Shown piece after piece: positions 40,156 through 55,646 of a stretch of DNA of 64,000 bases. The notes below the pieces were generated by a model. That model was not told the origin of the DNA. It did no database searches and saw only the letters and a program-made list of their open reading frames with translations. Location of the stretch: the NCBI RefSeq assembly GCF_006345805.1, contig NC_043014.1, positions 49,910,001 to 49,974,000 on the forward strand, given 5' to 3'. The stretch is from Octopus sinensis (taxonomy: Eukaryota). Numbering within the stretch: the first letter of the stretch is position 1; each line of letters begins with the position of its first letter. A program made the translations under genes and the position numbers.

Positions 40156-40292
40156 GGCAAAATCCTTTATTCCACTTTGTGACACGTTTTTTTATTTTTT
40201 TAATTTTTTGTCTCATTTACTGATGCAAACCATCAGTGGTTTTGTTGGATGCCACTGTTTCTCTCTGACATATTTGGTGTTTGTTTGTCCAG

Positions 40293-40778
40293 AAACCCCT
40301 GCGCAGAATTGAAATCGAAGAGATTGGAGTGGAAGAAAAACTGACTCATGATCAACTGAGCGCGAAGATGGAACAGTCACGCAGCAAAGCAGAGCAAAAG
40401 CAGATTAACAAAGACCAACTGTCATTTCAACAGTATACAGGGGATAGCAAAAAAACTCCTCCCAAAATAGAGGAAATTCAACCAAAACCTGCTGAAAAAA
40501 CTCAACCAAAACCAACTGAAAAAACTCAACTAAAACAAACTGAAAAAACCCAACCAAAACCTGCTGAAGAAATTTCCATCAATGCTCCAAGACAAAATTC
40601 TCCTGCAGTTACACCAGATGAAACAAAGTCAACAGAAAAATCAAAAATTCCTTGTGATCAAAGTTTGGTTTGTTCTGTTGATGAAGAAAGCCTTGCTTTC
40701 CAGCCAGATCCAAAGAACTTCCAGTATAATTGGCCTCAAGTGAAGAAAGACTCAAACAAAATTAGCCAATACTTAAAG
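40293..40778 (+). CDS. RPAP3: RPAP3 coding exon 7
   Basis: Encodes KPLRRIEIEEIG (post-TPR motif), a low-complexity linker, then FQYNWPQVKKDSNKISQYLK (start of the RPAP3_C domain). 486 nt, phase 0. Confidence 0.9.
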
Positions 40779-41663
40779 GTGAGTAATTAATCTCTTATTT
40801 ATAATTGAGTGGCTGTGTTGTAAGACGTTTGCTTCCCAACCCAGATGGTTCAATTCCACAGTGTGGTACCCTGAGTAAGTTTACTTCTCTAACCTTGGGT
40901 CAACCAAAGCCTTGTGAATGGATTTGGTAGATGGAAACTGAAAGAAGCCCATCACACGCACACACACATATATATAGACACAGGAGTGGCTGTGTGGTAA
41001 GTAGCTTGCTTACCAACCACATGGTTCCAGGTTCAGTCCGACTGTGTGGCACCTTGGTTAAGTGTCCACTACTATGGCCTCAGGCTTTGTGATCATGTTG
41101 ACATTTGAACTGCAGCACACCATGGCCCCTGCACAAGCTATGTCGATTTGTCAGAAGGACTGAGTTAACATACAAACACAAACATTTGATCCCGATAAAC
41201 AAATCGTCTGTGAAGGTTATTCAGCAAAATATTGCTCAGAATCGTCTTTCTTGGACTTGAGACGCTTACCAAGAAGAAAATACCCAACATGATCAGAGTT
41301 AGAATTGAATATACATTCTCTGTGTGTGTGTGTGTGTGTATACTTTCTCTTTTACTTGTTTCAGTCATTTGACTGCGGCCATGCTGGAGCACCGCCTTTA
41401 GTCGAGCAAATCGACCCCGGGACTTATTCTTTGTAATCCCGGGACTTATTCATCGGTCTCTTTTGCCGAACCGCTAAGTGACGGGGACGTAAACACACCA
41501 GCAATGCTAGGAGGACAAACACAGACACACAAACACACACATATACATATATTTTTTTTTTTTAATTTTATTTTATCTAGTTTCAGCTCACGAGCTGTGG
41601 CCATGCTGGGGCATCGCCATTAAAATTATCGTTGTGCATCGGCTGGGAATATATATATATATG

Positions 41664-41706
<43 letters not shown>

Positions 41707-41918
41707 GACAGGCTTCTTTCAGTTTCCGTCTACCAAATCCACTCAGAAGGCATTGGTCGGCCCGGGGCTGTAGCAGAAGACACTTGCCCAAGATGCCACG
41801 CAGTGGGACTGAACCCGGAACCATGTGGTTGGTTAGCAAGCTACTTACCACACAGCCACTCCTGTGCAAGATATTTTGTTGCCAGTTGGGAATTATTGTG
41901 TTTTGTCTCCATTTTCAG

Positions 41919-42016
41919 GTGTTGAACCCTGAATCATATCCTACCCTCGTCAATCAGTTTATAGATGCGGAAATGGTCACCAAACTCTGTGCTAACCTTC
42001 AAAATGCATTCCCCAG
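41919..42016 (+). CDS. RPAP3: RPAP3 coding exon 8
   Basis: Encodes VLNPESYPTLVNQFIDAEMVTKLCANLQNAFP. ttttcag acceptor and gtaaga donor. Confidence 0.9.
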
Positions 42017-42801
42017 GTAAGATGCCTTATGACTCCTAATATCTAATGTATATATATATATATATGTTTCTTTATTGCTCTCAGGGGGCTAAACATAGAG
42101 GGAACAAACAAGGACAGACAAAGGGATTAAGTCAATTATATCGACCCCAGTGCGAAACTGGTACTTTATTTATCGACTCCGAAAGGATGAAAGGCAAAGT
42201 CGACCTTTGGCAGAATTTGAACTCAGAATGTAACAACAGACGAAATACCGCTAAGCATTTTACCCAGCGTGCTAACGTTTCTGCCAGCTCGCCACCTTAT
42301 CTAATATATATATATATATATATACACACATAAACACACACACACACATGTGAATTTTAACCAAAAAAGGTGAAACAAACCAGAATAAACTGGTAGAAGA
42401 GCAGTGGGGGTTAGATTCTGGTTGTAGAAAATCTCCCTAAATAAACTCCATCTGACCCATGCAAGCATGGAAAAGTAGATGTTAAAACGATGATGATATA
42501 TGTACATATAAATGATAGGGAGGTGGTTTATTAGTTGAAGGTCGGTGATTTGGTTGTCAGTTTTAGCAGATTAAGTAACCATGTAGAGGCCTCTCTCATT
42601 AGCTTCTAAATGGTACTTTAATTCATTAATTATTATTGATAGCTGCAGAAAACAACCATCAACCAAATCACATAAAAAATTCCTTTCTTTTCTACACCAT
42701 CTCTATAAACATAAGTCTCTGAATATATTTACTACTACTACTACTGCTACTACTACTACTATTACTATTACTACTACTACTGCTGTTGCCACCACCACTA
42801 C

Positions 42802-44726: not shown

Positions 44727-45344
44727 TATTTACATTTGACGGATATTTGTCCTCATCTTGTTTGTTGTTTACATATTTTGGCTGATATACTCTCCAGCCT
44801 TCATCAGGTGTCTTGGGGAAATTTCGAACCTGGGTTCTCATTCCTAAGGTTATTTTTTGATGTTATTATTATTGAACTCGGAATCTTGGGGTTAGTAGCC
44901 TGCGCTCTTAACCACTACACCATATCCCCGTGGGCAATTATGGAGCGAATTTTAGGGTTTATATCCTTCGTTAATATCGGTTCCATATGCTACTCGGAAA
45001 AATTGGCAAGTCTTATAAGTGATGGTAGCTACAGCATATGGGAACCAGTATTAAGGAAGGATAGGAAAATATTAGATTTTTAGCCCTAAAATTCCTTCCA
45101 TAATTGCCTATGGGCATATGGCGTAGTGGTTAAGAGAGCAGGCTACTAACTCCAAGATTCCAAGTTCGATTCCAGGCAGTGACCTGAATAATAATAATGA
45201 TAATAGCATTGAAAAATACCTTAGGAATGAGAACCCAGATTCAAAATTTCCCCAAGACACCTGAAGAAGGCTGAAAGGTATATCAGCCGAAACGTTGTGT
45301 TATCAACAAACAAGATGAGGACAAATATCCGTCAAATGTAAATA
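44727..45344. mobile_element. ~620-bp inverted-repeat element, each arm with a tRNA-like head and hammerhead-type tail
   Basis: Arms at about 44727-44990 and 45033-45344 are reverse complements. Head gggcatatggcgtagtggttaagag...agttcgattcc at 45112-45185. Confidence 0.8.
45256..45301 (+). ncRNA. Minimal type I hammerhead ribozyme motif
   Basis: gacac-CTGAAGA-a-ggctga[aaggtata]tcagcc-GAAA-CG-TT-gtgtt: helix I, core, 6-bp helix II, palindromic ACGT helix III and a GUU site. Confidence 0.7.
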
Positions 45345-49564: not shown

Positions 49565-49730
49565 CTCCCCCAAACGGAAGCGGAAATAGAGTCGTCGTCG
49601 GCGCAGAAGGGAACAAGAAGAAGACGGCTACTTCCTGTGTGAAGGTGTGTCCCTCCTCTTCTCCTGAATTTGTTTGGAAACCTTCAGCAATTATCCGAGA
49701 GAAGGTTTGTCAGGTTCGTATTGGTATGAC
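49565..49730 (+). promoter_or_regulatory. Probable EXOC2 promoter and non-coding first exon
   Basis: Local CpG enrichment, tandem ETS-like cggaagcggaa and acttcctg, candidate donors (cag|gttcgt, ttg|gtatga), and a DRE-like TATCGATA at 49781. The EXOC2 ATG exon begins with an acceptor at 53655, so an upstream exon is expected. Confidence 0.45.
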
Positions 49731-50134
49731 CACTTATTCCTGAGAGCCTTTATTAATTATTACGATTGTTATTATAATTATATCGATATTTAATTGTCTC
49801 CGAACCAGCTTCTAATTATGTACTGTCGTCATTAGACCCGTTTCTTAATTAATGAAGACCAATTAATATTTGTTATTGTTGTTGTCCAGCGACTTCATAG
49901 AGACAAGAGGCGCCTCTTGTCCTTTGGTTGCTTGGCCCCTCTGTCACTGTACAGCTGAATACCAGACCTATGCATGAATAGTATAAGCAAAAGATGTTCC
50001 GGCCGTGGCCGTCCAGTCTTTTATTTTTATTTTCTCAGAGCTTTATTCAATTTGTCCATGTTTTACGTTTTTATTAACGGCTGCAGGATGTCCATTGAAA
50101 AATGTGTGGCTGTTATTACTAACAGGTCCAACTA

Positions 50135-50406
50135 TGGTACTACTAGCGAACAGTGGTCCCGGTGCGCGCACTCGCTAGTCGTAAGTAGTCGATCATACAA
50201 CGACTTGCGCTTATGTGTCAAAGAGAATTAAATATTTTTCGAACAAAGTAAATAAAACGCAAAGTAAATAATTTTTTAAACTAAGTAAAATAAATTATTT
50301 TTATAAACAAACTACGGTTAGGGTTAAAAAATCGTTGTAGGATCGACTACTTACGACTAGCTAGCGCGAGTGCACGCACCGGGACCACTGTTCGCTAGTA
50401 GTACCC
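50135..50406. mobile_element. MITE with ~65-bp TIRs and 7-bp TSD
   Basis: ggtactactagcgaacagtggtcccggtgcg... and its reverse complement. Flanking direct repeat ccaacta at 50128-50134 and 50407-50413. Confidence 0.85.
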
Positions 50407-52617
50407 CCAACTACCATGTAGAGGTTGACTCATAATAGCAAGTGTGTGTGTATTTGTTTGTTAAGGTGTGATGTTCTTTAAGTTCGTTTCGTAATCATGT
50501 AGTTTCGGGTTCAATCTCATTGCAAACCAGCTTGGACAATTTTTTTTCTTCCTATAGCCTCGCGTTAACCAAAACTCTGTGTTGATATTCAGAAGGCAGA
50601 AACGGTTGGTCGTGGTTGGAGAGCAGAAAGAGAGAGAGTATTTCTTTATTCACCATAAGGTTGAGAAAAAGAGGGGACAATACGGGGACAGACAAAACAA
50701 ACCTTGGGGTCAGGGTATCGAATGAGACGAAACGTATGAATAAACAAACAATTAAAATATATACAAATAAATGAGAAAAGTGGGGAGAGAGAGAGCTGTT
50801 CGTATTGAGAATGGTACACTTCAATTGTCATCCTTATTTAACCCCACCCAGCTGACCCTTGGGTATTTTTAACAGGTTCCATTCAGTTCTAAAAATTCAG
50901 ACCAGGGCTGTACCCTGAGGATACTCCCACCCCACCTTTTCTCTACCATTCTCAGAGATTCTACAGAATTGTCAAAGGCGTTGCCTTTCTGCTTCCATGC
51001 CAGTGAAAAATACCACAGACCCAACATCACTTCGTCTGCTTCATTTTATGTTATCTTTTACTTGATTCGGTCATTGGACTGCGGCCATGCTGGGGCACCG
51101 ATTTGAAGCGTTTTAGTCGAATGAGCGGACCCCAGTTCTTATTCTTTTAAAGACTAGTACTTATTCTATGGGCTAAGTTATGGTGATGTAAACAAACAAA
51201 CACCGGTTGTCAAGCAGTGGCCGGGGGGACAAACACAAAGACTCACACGCACATATATACACACACACGACGGTCTTCTTTCAGTTTCTGTCTTACAAAT
51301 TCACAAGCAAGGATCTGGCCATCCTATGTCTTCAGTAGAAGACTCTTGCCCAAGATGCCACACTGTAGGATTGAACTAGGAACCATGTGGTTGGAAAGCA
51401 AACTTCTTACCACACAGCTACGTCCACATTTTTAAACACCCATTTTACCTGACAGGTTAGATAAACCTTTAAGGTTTGGTTCCCATATCTCAGCTAGTTT
51501 AATCCGAAAACTATTCAAGACTTATTAAATGTGCGAAATTTTATTATTTGTCTCCCAGTGGTTTCATGATTGCTTTGTTTGGTTACGAAAATCCCAAAAC
51601 AAAACCATTGAATAAAATTAAAATTCCTCAAAGCACTTCCCAGAATGTTTGTTAAATTATAATTATTATAGGCGCAGGAGTGGCTGTGTGGTAAGTAGCT
51701 TGCTTACCAACCACATGGTTCCGGGTTCAGTCCCACTGCATGGCACCTTGGGCAAGTGTCTTCTACTATAGCCTCGGGCCAACCAAAGCCTTGTGAGTGG
51801 ATTTGGTAGACGGAAACTGAAAGAAGCCTGTCGTATATATATAAGTGTGTGTGTATATGTTTGTGCGTCTGTGTTTGTCCCTCCAACATTGCTTGACAAC
51901 CGATGCTGGTGTGTTTACATCCCCATCACTTAGTGGTTCGGCAAAAGAGACCGATAGAATAAGTACTATGCTTACAAAGAATAAATCCTGGGGTCGATTT
52001 GCTTGACTAAAGGCAGTGCTCCAGCATGGCCGCAGTCAAATGACTGAAACAAGTAAAAGAATAGCCAAATAGTTGTCAACAATTACTTACATAAAACATT
52101 CTTTATCATGCCTGTGGGTGTTCCTGCCATTTCATCATATTGAACTGTTAATCCCTTCATGTCTTTTTTCTCTCTTCATTTTCTTTCGTTGTCTCTGTTT
52201 TTTTTTTTCTTCCCTCTCGATCCTTTCTGTCAAAGAGTGTAGGCTCGAAACATCAAAGACTTAACCATTCTTCCCGAGCCTTAAACTAATACACCTGCTT
52301 CTTGTTCCTTCATCTGTCTTTGTCTTTTCTTTTCTGTAAATTTGAACACTCTCTCTCTGTATGTATATATATATATGGCCAAAGTTTAGAACATTTAAAA
52401 AAAAATTAAAATCGTTATGCCCAAGTACAATTCGATTCACATATAACTTTGGGCATTTAATATTAATATAAAAATTTTAATTTTCAGACCTATACTCCAA
52501 ACTTTTTCCACAACTGTATATATATATATATATATATATATTACGGAGATGTACTCGCATAGCAAGTAATTTGATCTGAGATCGTGTGCTGAAACAAAAA
52601 CAATTGCAGCACGGATT

Positions 52618-52668
52618 TTTGTCAGTGAACAGGTCGCGGTCTTAAAGCGACGAAAATATTTTGACAAA
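52618..52668 (+). ncRNA. Type I hammerhead-like fold with G3-C8 swapped core
   Basis: tttgtca-GTGAACA-g-gtcgc[ggtcttaaa]gcgac-GAA-AATATT-T-tgacaaa: perfect 7-bp helix I, 5-bp helix II and palindromic helix III. Confidence 0.6.
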
Positions 52669-52745
52669 TTAAACTTAAATGTTGAAGTGAATCGAACGGC
52701 TTTTGCGTGTTTCTTAAATGGCTTATAAACACCTTCCACGCTGCA

Positions 52746-52787
<42 letters not shown>

Positions 52788-53675
52788 AAATAATAAGGGT
52801 GAAAAATTGAATATTAGTTTGATTAATATCCATTTAAAACCAGTGGTCTAGTATATAGAAAAATCTGAAGATTCTGAAAAATTATATTACATACAGAAAA
52901 CTCTTCTAGCATAATGGATGTCCACTTAGTGGTCATCCCTCTTATATGTATGTAATATATATATATAGATAGATAGATATAAAATACACACACACACTCG
53001 AAAAATCTATTTTTGCAATCATTTGAATCCTTTATTCTTTAGGTTTCGTAAGCAAAAATTAAAAAGTCTGAATCAATGATTATTGAATGTATTAAATATG
53101 TGAATTATTAAATGTATTGCAGATGATGTTGGAATTTAAATTGTTTCAGAACTATTTTCCTCTTCGTCTCAAATGATGAAATTCTATTTTAAATATAAAT
53201 TTTCGCTTTAACCAGTTTGTATTTGCAATTCATTTAATCTCAAGAATGGTGGATTTGATCTTAATCCATCGTGTGCGTCGTGGCCATCCATACTTTCAGG
53301 CATGTCCTTTATGGCCATGCCCTCCTCACCTGTTTCCAAGCAAGATGACATTTCATCATAACCATACATGTTTCTGGAAGAATATTGGAAGTGAACGACA
53401 CTACTTGTATGACAGTGACACTCATTACAAAACAATCAAAGGTATTAGAGAACAGCTGTTCTCTGATCCATCCCTCACAATCTAACTTGGAAAAGAAATC
53501 TTATGTCAGTCAATCAGAACCAGCTGAACTAGAACTCACAACCTGTAGGTTCATTACTTATTTAGGTAAAACATCACCCTCTACACCATATAAATTTCAT
53601 TTCTGATTTCATGAAAACATTATTTAATGTTTATTTCTTTCCTTGTTTATTTCAGGTTTTTAAGCAATTCCGGCC

Positions 53676-53787
53676 ATGCCCATCCCTCCACCATTGGTGA
53701 CTGGTGTGTCCCCTAAGGAGGGTCCTCCTGGAACAAGGATCACAATCAGAGGTGAAAACCTGGGACATGATGCTAAAGACCTTGTTG
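53676..53787 (+). CDS. EXOC2: Exocyst complex component 2 (Sec5), first coding exon (IPT/TIG Ral-binding domain)
   Basis: MPIPPPLVTGVSPKEGPPGTRITIRGENLGHDAKDLV matches the Sec5 PP.VTG.SP.EG...T..TIRGENLG motif. Kozak-like gccATG and donor gtaagc. Confidence 0.95.
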
Positions 53788-55646
53788 GTAAGCTTGTTTT
53801 TAATTTTAATTGTTGTTTTTCTTACCTTGGTAATCATTCTAGAACGTTCTGGAAAGTGGGATGGTCCAGAGACTGGAAGGTTCCAGGGAAGCGTTTTGGT
53901 GAATGGAATCTTCCTGTCCCAGGGAACATTCATGTTTTAGGAACACTTCATTCCTGTTTCAGAGACCATTTTGGAAATGGAATATTCTAGGAATACTCCA
54001 GTTCCTGGAACACTTCCTTCCTTGGAAAATGGAATGCTCCAAGGAAATAGGTATTCTGGAAAGAATAGAATGTCCTGTGGAGCTGAGGTAACCCATAGAA
54101 CTAAGGGAATGGAATGTTCTGAGGAACCCAAATGTTCTGCTAAAAGAATGTCCTGGAGAATGGAGTGTTTGATGAAGAGGGATATGGAAAGTTCCAGGGA
54201 ATGGAATGTTCTGACACTCTTATAATTCTGCCAATCCACTTCCCTAGCATGGTGTATTATTTATAGACCCTGAAAGGATGAACGACAAAGTTGACCTCGG
54301 CAGGATTTGAACTCATATCACAGAATTAAAATAAAATACATAAAGTATTCTATATTCCTTGGACATCTATATATATATATATGCATCTCTCCCCCCCCCC
54401 CACCTTGATTGGCTCTCATGCCGGGTGGCATGTGAAACGCACCATTCGAGCATGTTCGTTGCCAGCGTCCCCTTACTGGCACATGTGCTGGTGGTACATG
54501 AAAAGCAACATTCGAGCATGGTCAATGCCAGTGCCGTTGGACTGGCTCCTGTGCAGGTAGCACATAAAAAACACCTTTTGAGCATGGTCATTGCCAGAAC
54601 TGCCTGACTGACCCTCGTGTTGGTGGCATGTAAAAGCACCCACTACACTCTTGGAGTAGTTGGCATTAGGAAGGGCATCCAGCTGTAGAAACTTTACCAT
54701 ATCAGATTGGAGCCTGGTGCAGCCTTCTGGTTCGCCAGTCCTCAGTCAAACCGTCCAACCCATGCCAGCATGGAAAGTGGACGTTAAACGATGATGATGT
54801 TGATGATGATGATATACTCCTGTCATACAGCGCTTTATTTCCTTTAATATATATCCCTGTCATACACCCGCCTCATTATCTTTAACCTTGATCCCCATCA
54901 CCTCTTTACTACCTCTGTCCCTTTATCATTTAAATTGGCCATATAATCTACCATATAAGCTGGCCAAATAATCTGTTTTTTGTTCCAATTGGCTATGTCC
55001 AGCCTCTCACACCTAACCTACATTGTCATTCTAAAGCAAAGTATATCACATCATTGAAATCTCAAAGCTACAAGATAATGCATGATGAATTCAAAACCAA
55101 TGTGAATAGATAAGCATTACATTTGACAGAAATCTGAATGCTGCAAGGTTAATATACATACACCCCAGTCACAGACCTTTTCCACTACCTTTCATATATA
55201 CCCCAACATCAAAATGAAAATCAAATGGAAATTGTAGTTAAGATACTTGTGCCGGTGACACGTTAAAAGCACCGTCCGAACATGGCAGATGCCAGCGCCA
55301 CCTGACTGGTGTCCGTGTCAGTGACATGTAAAAGCACCAACCGATCGTGGCCGTTTGCCAGCCTTCTCTGGCCCCTGTGCCGGTGGCACATAAAAAGCAC
55401 CCTCTACACTCATGGAGTGTTTGGCGTTAGGAAGGGCATCCAGCTGTAGAAACACTGCCAGATCAGACTGGAGCCTGGTGCAACCTCCTGGCTTTCCAGA
55501 CCCTAGTTGAACCGTCCAACCCATGCTAGCATGGAAAACGGACGTTAAGTGATGATGATGAGGATGTACCCCCTATTGCACACCTCTTCACTAATTCTCC
55601 AAGGCTCCCGAGTTAATTTCTAACTGCTGTTGTTTTATATTTTCAG

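What the first reader, a model, noticed from the sequence alone, without database searches (positions are those of the whole stretch)
52600..52750. Natural hammerhead fold with compensatory C3G/G8C core swap, sense to EXOC2
Seen: exact type I geometry, with helix I tttgtca/tgacaaa, core GTGAACA, helix II gtcgc/gcgac, GAA, palindromic helix III AATATT and a UUU site (cut predicted after 52661). ATTAAA follows, and the unit is bounded by inverted acaattgcagc repeats next to (TA)n. Established: C3 and G8 of CUGANGA form a tertiary Watson-Crick pair, and swapped pairs partly rescue activity. Here both positions are exchanged together, which random decay is unlikely to do. Standard CUGANGA searches would miss it. 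Inference: a hidden variant ribozyme family, in the inferred first EXOC2 intron.
Basis: partly seen in the sequence, partly recalled or inferred. Interest (0 to 1): 0.75.

Follow-up and report, generated by a model that had tools for sequence, protein, structure and literature searches.

The report
Swapped-core hammerhead in octopus retrotransposon
This is one of thousands of short end-pieces of a Penelope-type jumping gene, likely in an octopus, and it carries a hammerhead-shaped RNA whose core C-G pair is naturally reversed to G-C; it is predicted, not shown, to cut itself slowly, and its place beside the EXOC2 gene is likely incidental.

Summary
It is not a locus-specific ribozyme. It lies in the terminal repeat (pLTR) of a Penelope-like retroelement with RT and GIY-YIG domains, whose full copies I recovered. 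G3-C8 is the family majority: 5,708 exact core matches. Among copies picked by a downstream anchor, 75 of 75 have G3 and 75 of 78 have C8. Sister families in the same genome keep C3-G8, and metagenome relatives show C3-G8 or U3-A8, so the swap is real covariation and probably derived. Cleavage is untested and probably slow. Only 2 of 100 copies start at the predicted cut, and an unpaired G3·G8 sub-lineage also spread. I found natural U3-A8 and engineered G3-C8 in print, but no natural G3-C8; the largest survey of these hammerheads was not held. The 'inverted repeats' are a fold-back by-product. The scan has noted this family before on other DNA. Verdict: new variant of a known kind, moderate interest.

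The parts
52517..52541 (.). (TA)n microsatellite, left side of the insertion target
52541..52612 (-). Inverted copy of the element's 3' end with its ~60-nt 'tail'; joins the sense piece through shared TGCAGC letters
   Evidence: reverse complement printed equals the 3' end of other copies; the same layout recurs in about 20 of the 30 loci
52605..52750 (+). 5'-truncated pseudo-LTR end of a Penelope-like element (from just after a 3'-splice-site-like AG to the short 3' end)
52618..52668 (+). Type I hammerhead motif: helix I 52618-24/52662-68, helix II 52633-37/52647-51, GAA 52652-54
52625..52631 (+). Core GUGAACA: G3 (52625) and C8 (52630) in place of C3 and G8
52632..52632 (+).
52655..52661 (+). 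Palindromic helix III AAUAUU and U17; predicted cut after 52661 (UUU triplet)
   Evidence: self-duplex only -0.2 kcal/mol
52718..52750 (+). First 11 codons of the element's RT/GIY-YIG ORF, which in full copies runs on through the tail
   Evidence: L137/L365 translations
52750..52784 (.). (TA)n microsatellite, right side of the insertion target
53656..53789 (+). Host context, not part of the element: EXOC2/Sec5 first coding exon (ATG 53676), about 1 kb downstream

Best explanation
This is a truncated terminal-repeat fragment of a Penelope-like retroelement inserted in a (TA)n tract, carrying the element's hammerhead motif with a family-wide G3-C8 core pair, which likely self-cleaves slowly and only with help (the element's protein or a second copy). 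Shown: the full element is pLTR - RT/Zn-linker/GIY-YIG ORF - microsatellite-rich 3' region - pLTR; the hammerhead lies in the pLTR 56 nt before the ORF start and upstream of both 3' ends; G3-C8 is the majority state through several loop-II subfamilies; relatives have C3-G8 or U3-A8. Inferred: the swap arose once in this family's source lineage from C3-G8 and was kept because position 3-8 needs a Watson-Crick pair more than particular bases. Inferred: activity is attenuated (swap, extra G at 9a, UUU site, G3·U17 wobble, weak helix III). A slow ribozyme would suit the element, because cutting the 3' pLTR would separate the ORF from the ends where reverse transcription starts, while an occasional cut would trim read-through or tandem transcripts just before the start codon. 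The single copy near EXOC2 likely has no partner and no host role.
For: Element: 793-aa open frame about 1 kb upstream of the motif in L125; tandem pLTR-ORF-pLTR with period 4,361 nt in L365; inverted partial copies, two 3' ends and (TA)n targets match the PLE layout in PMC8557442 and the tail described in PMC11167929. Core: 5,708 exact matches, control 0; 75/75 G3 and 75/78 C8 in anchor-picked copies; 94 of 100 listed in an older loop subfamily; no variant of 3% or more at 52625-32 in contigs of 4 runs with 4 organism labels. Covariation: protein sister family (55% identity, SH-aLRT 100 in a quick tree) has C3-G8 in 25 of 30 loci, the other 5 giving no hit; a third family with almost the same helix I and core reads CTGAAGA-G, 92 of 100 listed C3-G8, none G3-C8; metagenome relatives L194 U3-A8 and L197 C3-G8 by scan, L195 U3-A8 and L193 C3-G8 by eye. 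Chemistry: the C3G/G8C double mutant partly restores cleavage in a PLE hammerhead that needs the element's protein (PMC11167929); PLE hammerheads are slow and dimeric (PMC4209133).
Against: No cleavage was measured or seen. Only 2 of 100 copies have a 5' end within -4..+2 of the predicted cut and 75 span the whole core, so copies come mostly from uncut RNA. An unpaired G3·G8 form spread: 145 G8 matches, 28 of 30 examined G3·G8, and 15 of 15 fetched copies of one loop type (11 on one chromosome) are G3·G8 with unrelated downstream flanks. The sister family's young copies carry A9C, so cores in this clade tolerate damage. G at the inserted position was strongly detrimental in a viroid hammerhead (PMC3705267), and the published PLE consensus has H, not G, there. 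G3·U17 pairs with probability about 0.65 and the AAUAUU duplex is -0.2 kcal/mol. Within-family constraint on core and stems is only suggestive (Fisher p 0.02-0.09 by how sites are counted, post hoc). Ribozyme mutants did not block insertion in vitro in the Anolis element.
Confidence: 0.62

Rival explanations
1. The motif is a catalytically dead or near-dead descendant of the pLTR hammerhead. Its fold is kept as a protein-binding or template-switch structure, or merely inherited, and the core reached G3-C8 by drift through an unpaired G3·G8 stage in a source element.
For: G3·G8 sub-lineage propagated; A9C fixed in young sister copies; 5' ends cluster at the splice-site-like AG (40 of 100) and at the start of helix I (28 of 100), not at the cut; several features each predicted to slow cleavage; ribozyme dispensable for insertion in vitro.
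Against: Majority states at 3-8 across the clade were always Watson-Crick (C-G, U-A, G-C); U4 G5 A6, GAA and both helices are kept while helix sequences change in compensating ways between families (GTCGC/GCGAC vs GTCAC/GTGAC); G3-C8 persisted across copies 82-99% identical to this one.
Confidence: 0.33
2. This copy acts as a host regulatory ribozyme in the EXOC2 5' intron, cutting the pre-mRNA.
For: Sense orientation, about 1 kb upstream of the first coding exon, motif intact.
Against: One of thousands of copies in both orientations at equal frequency; it is typical of the family, with no sign of special conservation; it has no second sense copy in the 64-kb window to pair with; intron position unverified.
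Confidence: 0.04
3. The resemblance to a hammerhead is accidental, for example a MITE with terminal inverted repeats.
For: No Rfam hammerhead match at E up to 10.
Against: Rfam also missed canonical-core PLE hammerheads used as controls; 0 hits in 40 shuffles; same position in the pLTR as canonical hammerheads of sister elements; the inverted arm is the element's own tail.
Confidence: 0.01

Closest known systems
Minimal/dimeric type I hammerheads in pLTRs of metazoan Penelope-like elements (Cervera and de la Pena 2014, PMC4209133)
   Same: Location in the pLTR, type I layout, extra nucleotide between 9 and 10.1, G10.1-C11.1 pair, short palindromic helix III, mostly single truncated copies, natural 3-8 covariation (U3-A8, about 1,300 hits in Schistosoma mansoni).
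   Different: Core pair is G3-C8, not reported in the parts I read; the extra nucleotide is G where their consensus has H; U17 in a UUU triplet.
PAc (Poseidon, Anolis) hammerhead and its engineered C3G/G8C double mutant (Frangieh et al. 2024, PMC11167929)
   Same: Same swap partly rescues cleavage in a PLE hammerhead; two 3' ends giving a tail; uncut RNA is the main template.
   Different: There the swap is a laboratory mutant; here it is the wild-type majority. PAc's ORF starts inside the ribozyme; here 56 nt after the cut. Tail here is about 60 nt.
Natural hammerhead core variants (Perreault et al. 2011, PMC3088659)
   Same: C3-G8 covaries in nature (to U3-A8).
   Different: G3-C8 is not named in the passages I read; those examples are not a multi-thousand-copy retroelement family.
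C-terminal EN+ PLEs of the Neptune/Nematis type (Craig et al. 2021, PMC8557442)
   Same: RT, then a CX2-5CxxC linker, then a C-terminal GIY-YIG-type domain; inverted 5'-truncated copies; microsatellite targets; hammerhead in the pLTR.
   Different: DKS in place of DKG; Neptune versus Nematis not resolved here (no named reference sequences in my tree).

Membership tests
Penelope-like elements (EN+, C-terminal GIY-YIG) | Single ORF with RT and C-terminal GIY-YIG endonuclease | tested here: met
   793-aa frame with DK-S, YVDD, VYQIKC..YIGET and C-C-H-H residues read from the translation; homologues are labelled RT-domain proteins, a few with PF00078 or PF01541. Pfam itself gave no hit for this protein; motif names are from PMC8557442 and recall.
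Penelope-like elements (EN+, C-terminal GIY-YIG) | pLTRs from tandem or inverted partial copies, optional tail, no poly(A) | tested here: met
   L365 tandem, L125 inverted, short and tailed ends
Penelope-like elements (EN+, C-terminal GIY-YIG) | Intron in the pLTR upstream of the ORF | tested here: inconclusive
   Branch-point and pyrimidine-AG-like sequence directly before the unit in 633 matches; donor and splicing not shown
Neptune/Nematis clades | CX2-5CxxC linker between RT and EN | tested here: met
   CQSNCAVC before the EN domain
Neptune/Nematis clades | Placement in an RT phylogeny with named references | not tested
   Tree held no named Neptune or Nematis sequence
Hammerhead ribozyme, type I | Three-way junction with helices I-III around the core | tested here: met
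   Helices I and II form with p 0.9-0.99; helix III does not form in the monomer and is a 6-nt palindrome
Hammerhead ribozyme, type I | Core sequence CUGANGA, GAAA, UH | tested here: not met
   C3 and G8 are exchanged; U4 G5 A6 A9, G12 A13 A14, A15.1-U16.1 and H17 are present
Hammerhead ribozyme, type I | Watson-Crick 3-8 tertiary pair | tested here: met
   G3-C8 complementary; covaries with C-G and U-A in relatives. Formation in 3D not tested.
Hammerhead ribozyme, type I | Loop I-loop II tertiary contact | not tested
   No recognisable contact was looked for; PLE minimal hammerheads often lack one
Hammerhead ribozyme, type I | Site-specific self-cleavage after position 17 | not testable with these tools
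   Only assembled contigs were available; genomic 5' ends do not cluster at the site
Non-LTR retrozymes | Short head-to-tail tandem units each with a hammerhead, no ORF | tested here: not met
   Copies are single or head-to-head and derive from an ORF-bearing element
MITE / TIR element | Terminal inverted repeats as fixed element ends | tested here: not met
   The inverted arm varies in length from copy to copy and is the element's own 3' end

The most novel reading that the evidence does not exclude
A wild-type, catalytically active G3-C8 hammerhead that evolved from C3-G8 within one retroelement clade that also uses U3-A8, tuned to be slow (U17 avoiding a G3-C17 trap, G at 9a) and switched on by the element's own protein. 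It would be the first natural G3-C8 ribozyme family and would imply a hidden set of hammerheads in PLEs now scored as lacking one.
Probability: 0.35. Interest if true: 0.62.

Novelty: new variant of a known kind. Interest (0 to 1): 0.42.

Why it matters
The C3-G8 pair was established with engineered swaps, and only the U3-A8 natural variant turned up in my reading. A family with thousands of G3-C8 copies beside near-identical C3-G8 sisters is natural phylogenetic support for that tertiary pair. It also offers a ready comparison set (G3-C8, C3-G8, G3·G8, A9C, U3-A8) for the open question of what PLE hammerheads do and whether cleavage matters for transposition. It shows that CUGANGA descriptors undercount hammerheads. 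It does not define a new ribozyme class or a new kind of gene regulation.

Tried and rejected
Rfam: no hammerhead hit for the motif, but none for canonical-core controls either, so uninformative. Pfam on the 793-aa protein: 0 families. Sequencing runs: no RNA holder listed and only contigs held, so neither expression nor cleavage ends could be read; contig depth was not used. EXOC2 exon 1 not found in 49700-54000 among the rows shown (many rows not shown). Naiad hypothesis (hidden hammerhead in a clade said to lack one): rejected, the endonuclease is C-terminal. G8 copies as a C3-G8 ancestral subfamily: rejected, 0 of 30 have C3. G3·G8 copies on one chromosome as segmental duplicates: not supported, one shared 212-nt match at different offsets among 15 downstream flanks. 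U17 as a specific co-adaptation to G3: not established, since U17 also occurs in C3-G8 and U3-A8 relatives. The careful tree did not finish; the quick tree was used. Literature searches for natural G3-C8 and for octopus hammerheads found none; four key papers were not held.

Full report
Observation. The described parts are present at the stated places: helix I 52618-24/52662-68, GTGAACA 52625-31, helix II 52633-37/52647-51, GAA 52652-54, palindrome AATATT 52655-60 and T 52661. A descriptor with positions 3, 7 and 8 free found 2 hits in the window and 0 in 40 block-wise dinucleotide shuffles. Helices I and II are predicted with probability 0.9-0.99, helix III not at all in the monomer, and G3 pairs with U17 at about 0.65; z-score -2.45.

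It is a repeat. The stretch 52545-52750 gave 57 matches among 40 scored of 287 candidates in the window's 2.72-Gb genome. The exact 19-mer over the core occurs 5,708 times (2,911 forward, 2,797 reverse; control 0). The same pattern with a non-G at position 3 occurs 228 times, and none of the 100 listed reads C3 with G8. To avoid picking on the core, I took the first 100 of 8,985 matches to a downstream anchor: 75 of the 75 copies reaching position 3 have G, and 75 of 78 reaching position 8 have C, 3 have G. These 100 are all on one chromosome and include head-to-head pairs. Contigs of 4 runs with 4 organism labels show no variant of 3% or more at 52625-32. The genome encodes sequences 98-99% identical to a protein named from Octopus vulgaris, hence 'likely an octopus'.

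The parent element. Some copies continue upstream through a branch-point and AG-like sequence (633 matches) into a microsatellite-rich kilobase and then a 793-aa frame (L125). [quoted passage not shown] L137/L365 show motif, ORF, motif in tandem with a 4,361-nt period, and the ORF starts inside the repeat at the ATG equivalent to 52718. Copies end at a short end (52750) or about 60 nt further on, often in (TA)n, and many carry an inverted partial copy at the 5' side. These are the PLE features described in PMC8557442 and PMC11167929.

Is the swap real covariation? Yes. The protein sister family in the same genome (55% identity; joined with SH-aLRT 100 in a quick 29-row tree) has a hammerhead at the same place with C3-G8, the same extra G and a compensated helix II, in 25 of 30 loci; 5 gave no hit. 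A third family reads TGTCR CTGAAGA G GTCAC, so its core differs from ours at positions 3 and 8 only in its commonest form: 202 matches, 92 of 100 listed C3-G8, none G3-C8; a few copies lie downstream of related ORF remnants. Among 72 metagenome loci, the close relatives L194 (U3-A8) and L197 (C3-G8) passed the scan, and L193 (C3-G8) and L195 (U3-A8) were read by eye. 33 of the 54 distant loci L211-L264, many redundant, gave sense-strand hits, all C3-G8. G3-C8 is thus nested among C3-G8 and U3-A8 and is probably derived; the tree is a quick one with long branches elsewhere.

Results against a working ribozyme. Only 2 of 100 copies begin within -4..+2 of the predicted cut; 40 begin at the AG-like site, 28 at helix I, 14 inside the core, 9 downstream, 6 upstream, 1 in between. 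G8 occurs in 145 matches; of 30 examined, 28 are G3·G8 and none C3. One loop type is 94 of 100 G3-C8, but 15 of 15 copies that I fetched because they had G8 are G3·G8 and have unrelated downstream flanks, so an unpaired form was propagated. Common variants avoid the core and stems only weakly (p 0.02-0.09, post hoc). G at the inserted position was strongly detrimental in a viroid hammerhead (PMC3705267). The palindrome's duplex is -0.2 kcal/mol against -3.5 to -7.5 for the palindromes of several other PLE hammerheads, although the sister families' helix III is as weak.

Mechanism. Most likely a slow, assisted ribozyme (0.62). The engineered C3G/G8C double mutant partly rescues a PLE hammerhead that cleaves only with the element's protein, and uncut RNA is the main template there. 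Metazoan PLE hammerheads cleave weakly and as dimers. By inference, low activity suits an element whose reverse transcription starts downstream of the motif. PMC3884650 notes that G3-C8 is more active without C17, which fits U17 here, but U17 also occurs in relatives. The main rival is a dead or structural relic (0.33). A host role at EXOC2 is unlikely (0.04): the exon at 53656-53789 is EXOC2 and has an upstream exon in 3 of 4 runs, but exon 1 was not located, orientation is random genome-wide and the window holds no second copy.

What is known. Natural U3-A8 is reported (PMC3088659; PMC4209133). Searches for G3-C8 wording and for octopus hammerheads found only engineered cases. The family's sequence was not in the supplements I could search (one file of PMC4209133 could not be searched). 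What I saw: PMC4209133 parts 1-2 of 4 plus supplement passages; bioRxiv 10.64898/2026.07.22.740005 part 1 of 5; passages only of PMC11167929, PMC3884650, PMC6765202, PMC3088659, PMC8557442 (plus one supplement search), PMC6155905, PMC1636495 and PMC3705267. Lunse et al. (the large survey of PLE hammerhead variants), Martick and Scott 2006, Hammann et al. 2012 and Przybilski and Hammann 2007 were not held, so the novelty claim is provisional. Rfam missed this motif and canonical controls alike. Six earlier notes of this scan describe the same family on other DNA; I read them after forming this view and they are not independent support.

Verdict. A real, family-wide natural G3-C8 variant of the known PLE pLTR hammerhead; new variant of a known kind; activity untested; interest 0.42.

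Noticed in passing
window 45256-45300 +: A second, canonical-core PLE-type hammerhead (GACAC CTGAAGA A GGCTGA/TCAGCC GAA ACGT T GTGTT) in the same window; not matched by Rfam.
   Followed up: partly
L163-L191 (G000 sister family, P0002-like): The sister family's hammerhead has A9 changed to C in its young copies (CTGATGC), while some other copies keep CTGATGA. Another natural core variant in thousands of matches.
   Followed up: partly
L513-L527 (G000:C20, also C7, C9, C15, C18): A G3·G8 sub-lineage with one loop-II type; 11 copies examined on one chromosome, most keeping the upstream intron-like region, with unrelated downstream flanks. Why it is concentrated on one chromosome is unexplained.
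   Followed up: partly
family copies, window 52603-52609 equivalent: 40 of 100 copies begin within a few bases of a 3'-splice-site-like AG, and 28 at the start of helix I. A splicing product as template, or template switching at short homologies, could explain this; not resolved.
   Followed up: partly
L189 (two copies, positions about 4264 and 4628): An unrelated element in G000 with a U3-A8 hammerhead (CTACA TTGACAA GGGG/CCCC GAA ACGCGT C TGTAG), repeated at 364-nt spacing.
   Followed up: no
L193, L194, L195 (metagenome contigs): Relatives show further core variants: U15.1-A16.1 in L193 (by eye), U3-A8 with C9 in L194, U3-A8 with a 3-bp helix II in L195 (by eye).
   Followed up: partly
L087, L088: Two of 100 listed non-G3 copies read A3-U8, the fourth Watson-Crick combination; two transitions by chance would explain this.
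   Followed up: no
window 50134-50407: A 274-nt element with long inverted arms (MITE-like), also present in other places according to contig cover.
   Followed up: no
window 40269-42020 +: Exon-like frames of an upstream gene on the same strand; they recall the C-terminus of RPAP3/SPAG1 (from memory), but Pfam gave no confident hit.
   Followed up: no
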